This document shows positions 49,479 to 63,824 of a stretch of DNA of 64,000 nucleotides, one piece after another. The DNA is from Oikopleura dioica (Eukaryota > Animalia > Chordata), in NCBI GenBank assembly GCA_907165135.1, contig OU015566.1, positions 4,588,001 through 4,652,000 on the forward strand, written 5' to 3'. How positions within the stretch are numbered: the stretch's first letter is position 1; every line of letters starts with the position of its first letter. Made by a program: the position numbers and the translations under genes. The notes below the pieces were generated by a model. The model saw only the letters and a program-made list of their open reading frames with translations. It was not told where the DNA came from and searched no databases.

Positions 49479-50464
49479 TTAACTTGATCGTAGATTTTGT
49501 CTTACTGGAAGCATCTCCTTGTACATTTGATGGATGGTAACTTCAGAAACACCAGTAACGTCACTGATTTCCTTGGCGGTTTTTCTTGTTTTTGATGTCT
49601 GAACCTCAAGAAGTTGTCTCAAATATAACTTTTTACCTGTGAGGCCATGTAAATTGCCGCTGCGGCAAGAGAAATCGGGGATCTACCTTCTGCCAAATCC
49701 AACTCGACGGATCGCTTGGCAATTTTAGTTGAAACAGCCTCGACTTGCTAAACAAGCGAGATATTGAAAAATTGATTGCAAAATATACTTTTGTGAGGTT
49801 GAGCGAAAAGCAAAAACGCATCATGAAGTCTTCTGACGAGATAGTTTTCACAGTTTTTTCGAGAGTTTTGATGATCCACTTGAAGCAGCGACCAATTTCT
49901 TTCTTCGAAACCGTACAAACAGCGCAGATTTCCTTCAGATCAATCAGGTTTCGATTTATTCTGATTATACCTTGAATGTGCGCGGAGCTCCTATTTGTCG
50001 ACAGGCAACATAAAGACAAGCTCCGGCGATAGCTTCGTGTGACTTTTGTCCTGCTTGATCGTAAATTTCCTTGAAATTGACTTTTGCCTGATCCAGAACT
50101 GATCCAGAAATATTCAAACGATGAGCCATAGCCCTTGATATTGTAACTTTTGCTCAAATTATGATTTTGTTGTACTCAATATTTCGATATGCCGCTAGAA
50201 GGGCTCGATCAGTAGCGTTCATGCGAGCTCGGTACTCCTCGTTGACAGTTCTCAGATCAGTCGACAGATATCGGTTTTCAATTTCACCGACTCGGGAAGA
50301 TCTCCATTCACTACTTTCTTGTTTTTTTTTTTCAAATTCTACTCAAACCTTTTCACATCAATCATTCTGTCGCCCACAACGAGTCCGCATTCAGTGCAAA
50401 TTACATCGCCTGCTCGGTAATCGTCAACTAAAGCTGCTCCTGGATGATACGGACATTCAAACAT
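49479..50464 (-). CDS. GTF2B: Transcription initiation factor IIB, intact ORF with in-frame internal deletions, 5 introns
   Basis: Zn ribbon [66 protein letters not shown] and [17 protein letters not shown]. Confidence 0.92.
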
Positions 50465-50598
50465 GCTGAAAAAAGAGGCGACATGATTCAAAAAAATTAG
50501 TTTATTTCATTCATTTTGCAGAGGAAAAGTGGTGCACAGGATAAAAAAAAACATTAATAATGTTACATTATTCTTCTTTGTCTTCGTTGTTGCTCTCT

Positions 50599-51006
50599 TC
50601 AGAAATCGTAGTCGTGTCGAATCTCGCCATTCATCAAGGCCTCTCTGATGAGCTCGTCCCGGGCTTCTGGCCAGTTAAGCGGTCGCTCAATCAGCATGAT
50701 GTCTGGATCGTTGAGGACGATGATCTCCATGTCGTCGTCGCTGGAAGAGATGATGATCACTTCATTGTCATCGCTGATTTCGATAACAGAGGAGTCGCTT
50801 GAGTCGGCGTCGTGATCGTGCTCGGTGTCGTTTTGCTCGGCGTTTTGTGTGTAGTCTTGACAGTCGCAGTCCATGTCATCAGAAGGAGGAGGGGTTGGAT
50901 TGTAGTCTACGGTCTCCAGAGAGACGTCGAGGTCAATGTCGACGAGTGATGGCGATTGAGCCGGGTAGACATACATATCGGAATCGGTTTCCCAGCGATC
51001 AGACAT
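50599..51006 (-). CDS. Acidic protein with tandem SUMO-interacting-motif-like segments
   Basis: Intronless ORF MSDRW.. containing VIEISDD, VIIISSSDDD, EIIVLND and DIMLIE. cag|aATG start context. Confidence 0.7.
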   Translation of the reverse strand: MSDRWETDSDMYVYPAQSPSLVDIDLDVSLETVDYNPTPPPSDDMDCDCQDYTQNAEQNDTEHDHDADSSDSSVIEISDDNEVIIISSSDDDMEIIVLNDPDIMLIERPLNWPEARDELIREALMNGEIRHDYDF

Positions 51007-51094
51007 TCTGGTTTGAAGGTTTTTGTTTTCTTGAAAGTAGAATTTTTTTTTTGACTGAATGACCATTTTTGGGTGTGGTTATATTCAGAAGCTC

Positions 51095-51145
51095 CAGACG
51101 CTTTGGCGCCAATCAGTTGGATCGATCTAAGCTGGCGCCAATGTA
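51095..51145. promoter_or_regulatory. Candidate bidirectional promoter with two TGGCGCCAAT (E2F-like/CCAAT) sites
   Basis: tttggcgccaat at ~51101 and ctggcgccaat at ~51131, between the divergent ORFs starting at 51006(-) and 51347(+). Confidence 0.4.
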
Positions 51146-51346
51146 CAATCGGAAATACTAATCTGATTTTAGTGAAGCGATCAGCGGGGGATTAGACTGC
51201 ATCTGTTCCCAGAATCGGCAGATAGGCCTTAGATTTCCGCCGGATATGTTTGTATAATTGACTTTTCACGGCTTAGCTTCACTCAACCATGGAGAAAATG
51301 GTATATAAGTAGCTCTTAACTCACTAATCTCATCAAATCCAGCAAT

Positions 51347-60464: not shown

Positions 60465-60820
60465 GTGATGGAGTCAGCTTTTCGAGACCTGATTGAGACT
60501 GCAAACTACTACAACGATCGAGATGACGAAATCGCTGATAAGGACAAACGAATAAGAATCAAAACCCTGATCGACTTGGTTATCCACGAAGAAGACGCCT
60601 TCAAGTTATCGGAGATGATGGGTAAATTATCATGCATCATAGATATAAAATTTCTTTAGAAGCTGAACCAAAAACCAATCCTGCCATTGAAGAAATCTTA
60701 CAAGTCATCGGAAGCTGCCTTGAGAACAAGTTTAACCTAGGTTTGACAGATTATCTGCGCATAAATTATCCTTTTTTTCAAGATGAATACGAAATCATAG
60801 ATGAGATCTACGAAAATTGA
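60465..60820 (+). CDS. ~105-aa helical acidic protein, one intron
   Basis: ..LSEMM|EAEPKTNP.. joined in phase by a GT-AG intron of about 38 nt. Confidence 0.55.
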
Positions 60821-61105
60821 TACTGTTTTTTCAAGTTTATTCAATAAAATTCAGACATAGAGTTCTTGTTCGGTTCTTCTTTTGGTCGATTTTGAGCATG
60901 ACAGAATAAATGTAAGCAGAGAAATATATACAAAGTATCCAACAAGGTAGGCGCAGAAAGTCTTGTGGCTCGCAGACCAGGTAGTTACACTAAAAAATAT
61001 ATTAGTTAATGCAAAGAAAACTAAACAAATACTCTGTGATGTTTGCGGACATCTTTTTTGAAAACATAAAGAATTTACCTCGCTTATATACAGATCGAAA
61101 TTGCC

Positions 61106-62200
61106 TTAGGCCTGGTTACAGAATTCCAGAAATTCGTCGAAGCAGCTGACATTTCCAAGCTCTTGCTCAATAGACCTTTCTTCTTTTATTTTTTCCTCCT
61201 TTTCGAGGGTGGAAAGAAACTGAGTGACATCTGCGTCGCTCAGATAATCTAATCCGCTGTCGCTGAATTTGTCTAGTGTTTTCTGCATCAGCTCGTCGAC
61301 TTGCTCTGTCATCGATTTTTTAGCCGGGAGAATGTCGGTGGATTCAGAATTCTTTCTTTTTCGAGACTAAAATATCTTTAGTTTCATTTGAACTCAGAGA
61401 TAATCTTACTTTAGTTGAAGGTTCGCCATTGATGATTGGCACAGCGTTGATGAGTGATGCTAGAATATGTTTTTAAAGAACATAATGAATCGCTTGTTCT
61501 TACATTTTGGTTGCTTTGGTTGCAGATTTTCAACCGAGTCGATAGTTGAATTCGCTAGGATATTTTTAGAAATGAATGTCTGGGAACGACCTACCATCGA
61601 AATCTAATCGATTGCGAATTTGCACCGTCGACTCATCGCGTTTGATTTCTGGGTTTATCGGGGTCAGAGTTAAATTGGGAAGAGTTTCCCATGATTTCAT
61701 CGGTGTAGATGTGGGCAGCATAAACCCTCTGATGTCCATCTGACGTAGCGAGTCATCATCATCGGATGAGATAATGATTGGAGAATCTGGCGAGTATGAA
61801 ATCAACCTTTCGAGGGGTCGAATCGCGTCGGGCTCTTTTTCCAGAGCTTGAATAAACTCCTCTGAAAAAAAATTTTAAGCCATTATTCTTAAGGCTAGAT
61901 GTACTTGTATATTCGAGAAACTGTTTGAGGTTCTCGGGGGCGACTTGCTCTCCAAGATTTTTGAATTTGCGGCTGTGGCGAGCCATTTCGCGGTGATGGA
62001 AAAAAATCTTTTGTTTAGCGATCGAAAGCTCTGTTTTTGCAAGTTCCATTCTCTATTTTGTAAATAATTTTGAGTGATGTGTTGAGCCTGCTGACCTTTA
62101 TATGGGCTTTGCAGTTTATGCGCGAGTAACTTGAGAAACATCGCTCTGCAAATATTTCCGGTTCTAGTTGGATTAGATTGTATATTCCATCCGGGCATTT
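61106..62200 (-). CDS. Multi-exon orphan protein with SIM-like, RxL-like and NLS-like motifs
   Basis: In-phase GT-AG joins link MELAKTE.., EFIQALEKE..SPIIISSDDDD..RNRLDF, and SRKRK..MTEQV..CNQA*. The 5' end is uncertain. Confidence 0.5.
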
Positions 62201-62500
62201 TTCTCACGGCTCGCTTTCAACTCAAGAATTATCCCTGAAAATTGTAGACCAAAGACACCGCGGGTAATCTTTTACTTCCTACAATGCCTTCGGTCTCCTA
62301 CTGTGACAAATGCGACGCCCTCTTACGGAAGTAGATGCTCATTTATCCTGCAACTGCAACCCAAATAACAAGATTACAAAATGCTTCAATAGCTCTTACT
62401 GCTCTTTACAGGACACTCTTCCTGTCACTTCATCTTTAAGCTTGTTACTTATATAATGACCAATAAATGACATTTTTGAAAGTTTTTTATTACAGTGAGA

Positions 62501-63790
62501 TTACAGAACTTCCTTTTCGACAGTGCCATGCTCATCGATCGTTATTTTAACTGAATGGCACGACCACATGACCAAAGTTTGAGCTTCCGTAGTTGGTTCT
62601 TTGAAATCAAGGACGAGATTCATCCAACCTTGAGTTTCTTCTGTTCCAGAAAACTCGTGAGCAAATATGGACGATTTCTTGAATTGCTCAAGGGATAAGG
62701 TGTTTGGTGAAGTCGACGAGACAAGCTTGTCCATGACATCCATCAGTCGAAAATATGGCCAAATCGGAAGTTGGTTAGTTATTCGCTAAAATAGAATTTT
62801 TAATAAAATTCAAAAAATTCTTTCTACCATTGGATATCCAAGGCAAGACTGTCCATTTAATGTGAGATTGATGTTTTGCAAGTCTTGATGGAATCCAAAT
62901 GCTGTCGTTTCCTTATCAATAGCACCCTGGAAGGATTTCGTATTAGTAAGCCCGAAAAAAAGAACCGCGGGTGTATTCCCTCCTTTGATATTGTGGAGAG
63001 TCAGATTCCCAGTTTTCTCAGGAATGTCTCTAGTTGAAACGGTGATTTCTTGATATTTGTACGAGATAGGCTTTGATTTTATTCGTGTAAAATAGTTTCG
63101 GATCGACGGGCTCGATACATATTCACAAACAGCATAGCAATCCTTTATCTCAAGAGGCTTGCCCTTATGGGTGGCTTGTTCAGGGGTCGAACCGATGTAA
63201 ACGGTAGAAAACTCTGATCGTAGACGGTTGAATTTAAGTTTCATTGTTGTGTTTAGTGGCAGAGGTTTATTATCCAAGCAAAATCCATTACTCGGAAAGA
63301 AAACAAGCTCATATACGTAGTGATCTCCGTCGCGAAAGCATTGCGGTCGACGAATCTGTTTGAGAACCTCTTTATCAGGTTGCGTCAAGTAGTCATAGAC
63401 TTCATGATCATAATAACCCTCAATCTGATAAGCTGATGAGACGTAGTCGCGGTTAAAGTTTCCGAATTTTGTCATGTAATCAGCAAGAAAATATTCGCAG
63501 CTAAATAAGAATTAATTTCGTCAGTCTCTTTCACGACAGCCTTACGTTGTTTTTGAGCTCGAAATGAGTTGGGAATTAATTTCAACTTCCATGACTCCAA
63601 ATTGCTTAGCGGCAAATCCATTACTTGGTATGTAATCTTCATGTAAAGATACAGACATATGAATCGCAATTTTATTTTTTAGGAGAAACAAATTCGGGTC
63701 ACTTTCAAATTCAAAAGTAAGAATTTCCGAAGACTGAAGATCTTTCGGAAAATGTTTCTTTAAAATGCGTTGGTCGTAAGCTTCATCCAT
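62501..63790 (-). CDS. Polinton-type major capsid protein (double jelly-roll, PY/hexon-like), 3 exons, ~400 aa
   Basis: ILTFEFESD..NGFAAKQF..MEVEINSQLIS, PLPLNTTMKLKFNR, P..LFFGL.N.KSFQG, INLTLNGQ and IFAHEF..GWMNLVLDF..ITIDEHG follow the Polinton MCP pattern. Introns at 63501-63545 and 62786-62827. Confidence 0.8.
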
Positions 63791-63824
63791 TTTTCTAAAT
63801 AGAGAAATAAACTTAAAAACGTAT

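What the first reader, a model, noticed from the sequence alone, without database searches (positions are those of the whole stretch)
50464..63796. Most viral start codons sit 1-8 nt behind a splice-acceptor AG: likely use of host SL trans-splicing and operons
Seen: cag|cATG (50464), cag|aATG (51006), cag|caatATG (51347), tag|agATG (58317), tag|aATG (58748, 59430, 60072) and tag|aaaaATG (63790). Twice an upstream gene's AATAAA lies ~35 nt before the next gene's acceptor (50501-50506 to 50466; 56418-56423 to 56387). Established: larvacean tunicates process operons by spliced-leader trans-splicing with very short intercistronic spacers. Inference: the virus uses the host SL system to express its genes.
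Basis: partly seen in the sequence, partly recalled or inferred. Interest (0 to 1): 0.78.

Follow-up and report, generated by a model that had tools for sequence, protein, structure and literature searches.

The report
Larvacean Polinton likely borrows spliced leader
A virus-like Polinton-type element in the genome of the larvacean Oikopleura dioica keeps a splice acceptor 1-4 bases in front of its capsid gene in all six copies compared, so it likely borrows the host's spliced leader to cut that message out of a longer transcript, but no RNA read has shown the join and several of its other genes look promoter-driven.

Summary
The window is Oikopleura dioica DNA; about 49.4-64 kb is an intron-bearing Polinton-type element. 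CAG/TAG lies 1-8 nt before 10 of 15 starts, against 79 of 489 other ATGs and 2.5-3.3 in shuffles. Only 5 of 15 score like real acceptors, and three of those are related by duplication. The best case is protease-to-capsid: in the window and five relatives, a 30-45 nt spacer ends in an acceptor, then A, then ATG (6 of 6; AATAAA in 5 of 6), although third codon positions are only 38-52% identical between lineages. Against a general rule: TATA-like boxes precede 51347, 62049 and 51006; 52265 has no AG; upstream core genes overlap as ATGA; a weak donor (TG|GTGA) is also kept in 6 of 6; host operons reportedly lack AATAAA. Two RNA lays neither showed nor excluded a leader join. Verdict: likely at the capsid gene and a few others, unproven, not general. 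The scan noted the same idea earlier on sea-squirt Polintons (unchecked here).

The parts
63825..64000 (-). 3' end of the cysteine protease gene (runs off the window); ends TGG TGA
   Evidence: Aligns with five complete proteases from L002-L006; two of those have weak Peptidase_C5 hits below the curated cut-off
63791..63824 (-). 34-nt protease-to-capsid spacer; acceptor TAG at 63797-63795 followed by A; no AATAAA in this copy. Best candidate SL acceptor
   Evidence: Same layout in L002-L006 with spacers of 30-45 nt
62501..63790 (-). Major capsid protein gene, likely double jelly-roll; introns 63545-63501 and 62827-62786; start fixed by homology
61106..62049 (-). Multi-exon gene of unknown function; TATAAAG 53 nt and TAG 3 nt before the ATG; likely has its own promoter (exons read by eye)
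60468..60820 (+). Small gene; CAG 4 nt before the ATG but a poor acceptor score (-10.4)
59730..60072 (-). Small predicted membrane-protein gene, paralog of 59430 (3' end approximate); acceptor-like tag|aATG, score 3.3, no good donor within 60 nt
59039..59430 (-). Small predicted membrane-protein gene; tag|aATG, score 2.2; upstream ATGs at -61 and -107; TATAAG at -183
58488..58748 (-). 86-codon predicted membrane-protein gene; tag|aATG, score 6.0; upstream region duplicated with that of 59430
57600..58368 (-).
56567..57356 (-). Acidic-protein gene (start 57356 or 57326); its AATAAA is at 56423-56418
56356..56423 (-). Candidate intercistronic region: AATAAA, then TAG (G at 56387) and CAG (G at 56362) before the polymerase ATG; a GTGATA donor-like site lies 51 nt before the second AG
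52325..56355 (-). Protein-primed family B DNA polymerase gene with 8 introns; start 56355 fixed by homology to L004
   Evidence: (relatives carry PF03175)
51720..52265 (-). Conserved gene behind the polymerase (60-nt spacer); no AG within 8 nt here or in L004: counter-example
51347..51622 (+). 91-aa gene; TATATAA 45 nt upstream leaves room for only a short leader; weak homologs in L004 and L005 lack an acceptor-like site
50599..51006 (-). Acidic-protein gene (in-frame upstream ATG at 51066); ATATAAC 78 nt upstream; its AATAAA is at 50506-50501
50465..50506 (-). Candidate intercistronic region: AATAAA, 35 nt, T-rich CAG|C ATG, with an out-of-frame ATG at -20; no GT donor 30-60 nt upstream, a good donor at 101 nt
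49479..50464 (-). TFIIB-like gene with five 38-42 nt introns; start fixed by the zinc ribbon; viral or host origin unsettled

Best explanation
An intron-bearing Polinton-type element in the Oikopleura dioica genome keeps a splice acceptor 1-4 nt before its capsid start codon, 30-45 nt behind the protease stop, and likely has the host's 40-nt spliced leader trans-spliced there to free a capped capsid mRNA from a longer transcript. Shown: the layout, its conservation in six elements, and that the family is transcribed and cis-spliced in the host. Inferred: host polymerase II reads through the protease gene; the upstream message either ends at the spacer's AATAAA or is read on; the acceptor has no strong donor at a usable distance and takes the leader. 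The same route probably serves the TFIIB-like and polymerase genes (downstream cistrons) and the 58748/59430/60072 group (leader replacing a 5' region with upstream ATGs). Other genes probably use their own TATA-type promoters (51347, 62049, 51006, 52265) or stop/start overlaps, so expression is mixed rather than leader-dependent throughout.
For: Acceptor score of 1 or more within 8 nt of the capsid ATG in 6 of 6 elements, against 19 of 489 background ATGs and 9-22% of shuffles of each spacer. Third-position identity between lineages is 38-52%. The base after the AG is A in 6 of 6 capsid sites (17 of 20 start-proximal sites tallied by hand, homologs included) against 10 of 33 cis acceptors; PMC6389100 (passages) says SL acceptors are usually followed by adenine. 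The spacer is close to the 23-30 nt intercistron size given for Oikopleura (PMC1488885, passages) and under the 60-nt operon cut-off (PMC7986045, passages). No TATA-like box is shared upstream of the capsid starts. A cis intron from the only nearby donor would be 32-35 nt in 4 of 6 elements, below all 33 cis introns measured (37-46 nt). Poly(A) RNA depth on L004 falls at the capsid start in three runs.
Against: No SL junction read. The runs do not cover this element, and on L004 the loose-end table was filled by a host repeat with 385 rows not shown. TGGTGA, a weak donor, is kept at the protease end in 6 of 6, while a terminal W is found in only 4 of 150 protease relatives; in L002 and L003 it would give 44- and 48-nt introns. 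Host operon upstream cistrons are said to lack AATAAA (PMC1488885, section 17), but 5 of 6 capsid spacers have it, only 13 nt before the TAG in two. The TFIIB-like and polymerase acceptors score below 0 (-4.4, -2.1) and have donors at 101 and 51 nt. The preference for A after the AG may reflect A-rich start contexts. The matrix rests on 33 introns, 9 of them set by hand.
Confidence: 0.62

Rival explanations
1. The acceptors are paired with upstream cis donors. At the protease-capsid junction TG|GTGA splices to the acceptor, removes the AATAAA and leaves TGA(NNN)ATG. The capsid is then made either from an internal promoter with a 5' UTR intron or by stop/start reinitiation, as the ATGA overlaps upstream suggest.
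For: TGGTGA in 6 of 6, not explained by a family-wide W (4 of 150). The splice would recreate an in-frame stop next to the ATG in 6 of 6 (distances 1 or 4). ATGA overlaps at minor capsid-to-ORF in 3 of 3 and ORF-to-protease in 5 of 5. Donors exist at 50-104 nt for the polymerase (both copies), TFIIB-like, 58317 and 59430 sites.
Against: Predicted introns of 32-35 nt in 4 of 6 are shorter than all 33 measured. None of the 33 donors begins GTGAA or GTGAT, and the donor scores are -1.7 to 1.7 against a median of 3.1. Distances of 1 and 4 are also the commonest at the other starts, so the frame argument is weak.
Confidence: 0.2
2. Each gene has its own promoter, with transcription starting a short way before the ATG. 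The TAGA pattern is a start-site or initiator motif (perhaps read with the TFIIB-like protein) or a by-product of AT-rich spacers, and nothing is spliced there.
For: TATA-like boxes 45, 53 and 78 nt before 51347, 62049 and 51006, and TTTAAAA 34 nt before 52265. AATAAA in the spacers would end the upstream message. O. dioica has a TCTAGA promoter element whose AGA often coincides with trans-splice sites (PMC6389100, passages).
Against: No shared TATA-like box before the capsid gene, and composition-matched shuffles do not reproduce the acceptors. Upstream ATGs lie 20-46 nt before the TFIIB-like start and three of six capsid starts. A start at the A after TAG would leave a 1-4 nt leader, too short for ordinary scanning (established knowledge). 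This rival is the likely reading for 51347, 62049, 52265 and 51006, not for the capsid.
Confidence: 0.13
3. The pattern is a selection artefact: the reader listed the starts that happened to have an AG.
For: Any AG within 0-8 nt precedes 223 of 489 random ATGs. Two of the eight starts have in-frame upstream ATGs, and three others are linked by duplication.
Against: 10 of 15 on a first-in-frame-ATG list, 4 of 5 on starts fixed by homology or a database record, a sharp peak in the first 8 nt, and conservation at the capsid gene in 6 of 6.
Confidence: 0.05

Closest known systems
SL-resolved operons of Oikopleura dioica (passages of PMC6389100, PMC6883708, PMC7986045, PMC1488885; the primary papers they cite were not read)
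   Same: Same host; head-to-tail genes with a very short spacer; AG acceptor followed by A in front of the downstream gene.
   Different: Here the genes belong to a virus-like element; AATAAA is present in most spacers, whereas host upstream cistrons are said to lack it; the leader join is not shown.
Polinton/Maverick elements and adintoviruses (PMC8502044: term search only, no mention of Oikopleura or splicing; gene set recalled)
   Same: Protein-primed polymerase B, rve integrase, packaging-type ATPase, cysteine protease and likely double jelly-roll capsid across the window and L004.
   Different: Many 37-46 nt spliceosomal introns, acceptor-fronted start codons and an adjacent TFIIB-like gene; terminal inverted repeats could not be checked.
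dinoRNAV with a 5' dinoflagellate spliced leader (PMC10235124, passages)
   Same: A viral RNA reported with the host's spliced leader.
   Different: That is an RNA virus and the leader was discussed as mimicry; no operon resolution in a nuclear DNA element.
Terminase trans-splicing in mirusviruses and alloherpesviruses (PMC12768974, passages)
   Same: Intron-rich nuclear DNA viruses that use the host spliceosome in trans.
   Different: Two viral coding parts are joined there; no host leader is involved.
SL1-type operons of C. elegans and intercistron-less operons of Ciona (PMC1488885, section 17)
   Same: Poly(A) signal very close to the trans-splice acceptor, so that one transcript gives either the upstream or the downstream mRNA; fits the 13-nt AATAAA-to-TAG distance in L005 and L006.
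   Different: Cellular genes; here spacers of 30-45 nt remain.

Membership tests
SL-resolved operon (Oikopleura type) | Host has an SL system | tested here: met
   Window exons match a named O. dioica protein; 40-nt SL described in PMC6883708 (passages)
SL-resolved operon (Oikopleura type) | Same-strand neighbours with a spacer of at most about 60 nt | tested here: met
   Protease-to-capsid stop-to-ATG 30-45 nt in 6 of 6. For TFIIB-like and polymerase the AATAAA-to-AG distance is 35 and 31 nt, but stop-to-ATG is 134 and about 210 nt
SL-resolved operon (Oikopleura type) | AG acceptor, usually followed by A, before the downstream start | tested here: met
   Capsid 6 of 6; not followed by A at 50466 and 56387
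SL-resolved operon (Oikopleura type) | Acceptor is unpaired (no cis donor) | tested here: inconclusive
   Weak GTGA donor at 32-48 nt in 6 of 6; shorter than any measured intron in 4 of 6
SL-resolved operon (Oikopleura type) | SL joined at the acceptor in RNA | tested here: inconclusive
   Searches show no such join; coverage was absent or low and 385 loose-end rows were not shown
SL-resolved operon (Oikopleura type) | Polycistronic precursor from one promoter | not testable with these tools
   Needs long reads or CAGE; the depth profile is only compatible
SL-resolved operon (Oikopleura type) | Upstream cistron lacks AATAAA (as reported in PMC1488885, section 17) | tested here: not met
   AATAAA in 5 of 6 capsid spacers and at both other window junctions; absent only in the window's own capsid spacer
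Polinton/Maverick | Protein-primed family B polymerase | tested here: met
   3 of 8 listed relatives across carry Pfam labels; P0006 and P0007 (45% and 33% identity) carry PF03175. P0004 itself had no Pfam hit
Polinton/Maverick | rve integrase and packaging ATPase | tested here: inconclusive
   Outside the window. In the related L004 the integrase has rve at E=5e-10 and the ATPase only weak P-loop hits
Polinton/Maverick | Double jelly-roll major capsid and adenain-like protease | tested here: inconclusive
   Atlas features 0.95 to clusters with PF21738 (65% of members) for relative P0003. The structure model was too poor to use (pLDDT 36), there was no PDB hit, and the protease C5 hits are below cut-off
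Polinton/Maverick | Terminal inverted repeats and target-site duplication | not testable with these tools
   The element runs off the window and no genome is held

The most novel reading that the evidence does not exclude
A family of intron-rich Polinton-type viruses of larvaceans has taken on the host's operon grammar. It uses a choice between polyadenylation and SL trans-splicing at the protease-capsid spacer, with a conserved donor-like GGTGA beside the AATAAA, as an early-to-late switch. This would put capsid synthesis under the host's leader-linked, mTOR-dependent translational control.
Probability: 0.25. Interest if true: 0.75.

Novelty: new variant of a known kind. Interest (0 to 1): 0.46.

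Why it matters
If shown, it would be a DNA virus-like element of an animal that relies on the host's spliced leader to resolve its own polycistronic transcript. Eight literature searches (open-access library only) listed no paper describing that. It would tie capsid output to the nutrient-dependent control reported for SL mRNAs (PMC6883708, passages) and suggest a host-range limit to SL-bearing animals. It also gives a cheap, exact test: six defined junctions. The surprise is limited, because any unpaired acceptor in an O. dioica transcript can take the leader, and the scan has noted the same on sea-squirt Polintons.

Tried and rejected
No genome is held for the window, so no genome-wide host baseline or element ends were available. 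No RNA holder was listed for 49000-58900. Laying X4, X5, X6 and X1 on 44001-64000 gave 60-143 reads per run, nearly all only partly fitting, and zero depth over 52.0-58.0 kb; this is uninformative. Laying the same runs on all of L004 was a poor choice, because its first 1.3 kb are host repeats that filled the joint and loose-end tables (121 and 385 rows not shown). Five protein scans of viral contigs gave one weak 18-residue match (L001, not used) and otherwise nothing. A scan of viral contigs for the 3' part of the SL found 0 matches. Rfam found nothing in the window. The capsid structure model was too poor for a fold search, and PDB sequence searches for the polymerase exon and the capsid profile were empty. 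The TFIIB-like origin was not resolved. A mechanical ORF list of the host part (8 of 65 with CAG/TAG) is mostly not true starts and was not used as a host baseline. TTTAGAATG and WWTAGAATG are not enriched over the whole window (1 vs 1.4 and 5 vs 3.8 expected), so the signal is positional, not a frequent motif. One cited paper on O. dioica trans-splice sites is not held, and no supplements were read. The database gene model P0004, which fuses the 57326 gene to the polymerase, was rejected in favour of a separate start at 56355.
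Full report
What the region is. Exons between 52328 and 57326 match the named Oikopleura dioica protein P0004 at 92-100% in tblastn segments that still include intron letters. Relatives of the polymerase exon carry PF03175. The ORF at 62813-63511 has three O. dioica relatives, and one of them (P0003) scores 0.95 to Atlas clusters with double jelly-roll domains (a lead only). One scan of metagenome contigs gave five related loci, L002-L006, from 339 pattern matches. 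L004 holds an ATPase, an rve integrase, a probable minor capsid gene, a short basic ORF, a protease, the capsid, a polymerase and small genes, and is nearly identical to the named O. dioica proteins P0019 and P0020. The window begins this cassette only at the protease's 3' end. I call it Polinton-type; terminal repeats could not be checked.

Observation. All eight strings and both AATAAA sites are present as stated. I listed 15 ORFs by hand between 49.1 and 64 kb and took the first in-frame ATG of each. CAG or TAG lies 1-8 nt upstream in 10 of 15, against 79 of 489 other ATGs (p=2e-5). Shuffles of the upstream 40 or 80 nt give 2.5-3.3 of 15, and none of 2000 reached 10. For five starts fixed by homology or a database record the count is 4 of 5, and the signal is confined to the first 8 nt. 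The enrichment is real. The bare test 'an AG within 8 nt' is not informative (223 of 489).

How acceptor-like are they? I collected 33 cis introns: 24 placed by alignment to database proteins (in 5 of these I took the GT-AG solution at the homologous place, not the top score) and 9 set by hand. Other introns of the small genes were left out. All 33 are 37-46 nt long; 3 contain AATAAA; 10 are followed by A. On a matrix from these, 5 of the 15 starts score 0 or more (63790, 62049, 60072, 59430, 58748) against 28 of 489 background ATGs. True acceptors range from -4.8 to 9.3 in leave-one-out scoring, so a low score does not exclude a site.

The strongest case is the protease-to-capsid junction. 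In the window and L002-L006 the protease stop is followed by a 30-45 nt spacer that ends in TAG or AAG, then A, then ATG 1 or 4 nt after the AG. All six score 1.0-7.3, which shuffles of each spacer reach in 9-22% of trials, and AATAAA is present in 5 of 6 but not in the window. The first capsid exons are 51-54% identical between the two main groups. Third positions agree in 38-52% of codons between lineages and in 58 of 76 and 52 of 78 within the close pairs L002/L003 and L005/L006, so about four lineages count as separate. No TATA-like box is shared. This fits what I read on the host system: unpaired AG acceptors usually followed by A, and 39% of genes trans-spliced (PMC6389100, passages); intercistrons of 23-30 nt (PMC1488885, passages); operons called at 60 bp or less (PMC7986045, passages).

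What cuts against it. The protease ends TGG TGA in 6 of 6, which offers a TG|GTGA donor. A terminal W is found in only the 4 closest of 150 protease representatives, so the protein family does not explain it. A cis splice from there would be 34, 44, 48, 33, 32-35 and 32 nt: too short in four, normal or near normal in two. It would leave a stop next to the capsid ATG, like the ATGA overlaps that join the upstream core genes (3 of 3 and 5 of 5). None of the 33 cis donors begins GTGAA or GTGAT. It fits better the arrangement described there for nematode SL1-type operons, where a transcript gives either the upstream or the downstream mRNA.

Site by site. 63790: likely SL. 50464: the start is fixed by the TFIIB zinc ribbon, with AATAAA 42 nt and an out-of-frame ATG 20 nt upstream, no donor at 30-60 nt but a good one at 101 nt; plausible, and the gene may be host rather than viral (searches did not settle it). 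56355: the polymerase start is fixed by homology to L004, with two AGs and a donor-like site 51 nt before the second (50 nt in L004); open. 58748, 59430, 60072: good acceptors, upstream ATGs at 61-107 nt, no good donor within 60 nt, weaker donors at 81-104 nt; plausible, but linked by duplication. 58317: in-frame ATG at 58368 behind TATAAAA, and a GTAAGC donor at 91 nt; doubtful. 51347: TATATAA at -45, and homologs lack an acceptor; probably chance. 51006: TATA-like at -78, A/C-rich tract; no splice needed. 62049: TATAAAG at -53. 52265: no AG here or in L004. Across the related loci the 15 listed starts of the overlapping core genes have no CAG/TAG 1-8 nt upstream, and 1 of 15 scores 0 or more.

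RNA. No RNA holder was listed. Four raw runs laid on 44001-64000 fit only in part and gave no depth over most of the element. On L004 the same runs show low, unstranded depth over the ATPase-to-protease cassette in three runs. It falls in the bin holding the capsid start (4280-4668): X4 from 4.1 to 0, X6 from 1.1 to 0, X5 from 8.0 to 4.5 (both mates summed). One cis joint of a related copy is shown. This is compatible with a 3' end in the spacer but does not prove it. The loose-end table showed only host-repeat rows, with 385 not shown, so a leader join was neither seen nor excluded.

Literature and earlier notes. Searches (listings only, except the papers named here) listed no paper on an Oikopleura Polinton or on a DNA virus using a host spliced leader. 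The library lacks most subscription papers, one key paper was not held, and no supplements were read. The nearest cases read as passages are a dinoflagellate RNA virus with the host leader (PMC10235124) and terminase trans-splicing in mirusviruses (PMC12768974). Term searches in PMC8502044 and PMC11957031 found no mention of Oikopleura. The scan's own notes report the host leader on sea-squirt Polinton genes (e1-7786388, e1-9814383) and acceptor-fronted starts in a soil virus (e1-7889064). I did not check these and count them as leads only.

Verdict. SL trans-splicing at the capsid gene and a few others is the most likely mechanism (about 0.6), cis splicing about 0.2, and local promoters about 0.13 for the capsid but likely for four other genes. 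It is a new variant of a known kind: a known host mechanism apparently used by a virus-like element, unproven without 5'-end reads. Interest 0.46.

Noticed in passing
window 21261-22001 and 30592-31333: Near-perfect inverted repeats of about 740 nt (556 nt at 100% plus 191 nt at 99%) enclose 8.6 kb; probably a recent DNA transposon with long terminal repeats.
   Followed up: no
window 63825-63830 (-); L002-L006 protease ends: The protease ends in TGG TGA in 6 of 6 elements, while only 4 of 150 relatives end in W. It may be a constrained donor-like signal next to the poly(A) site.
   Followed up: partly
L002-L006, core genes upstream of the capsid: Minor capsid-to-ORF (3 of 3) and ORF-to-protease (5 of 5) overlap as ATGA, and the integrase ORF starts 365-380 nt inside the ATPase ORF. 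How these are translated is unexplained. A longer in-frame protease ORF also exists, so the protease start is not certain.
   Followed up: partly
window 49479-50464 (-): Complete but diverged TFIIB-like gene at the edge of the element, with introns of the element's size (38-42 nt) and a shortened linker after the zinc ribbon; L004 has no such gene in the part held.
   Followed up: partly
window 58832-59801: Tandem duplication of about 700 nt carrying small Pro/Thr-rich predicted membrane-protein genes (75-86% identity).
   Followed up: partly
L004 1400-6600: The element family is transcribed at low depth in poly(A) RNA. A related copy of the small gene at 6286 shows a cis joint from 6417 in 24, 18 and 15 reads of three runs.
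   Followed up: partly
P0001, P0004, P0015, P0019, P0020: Database gene models fuse separate genes of these elements (integrase with capsid, acidic protein with polymerase), which hides their viral nature under names such as 'putative integrase'.
   Followed up: partly
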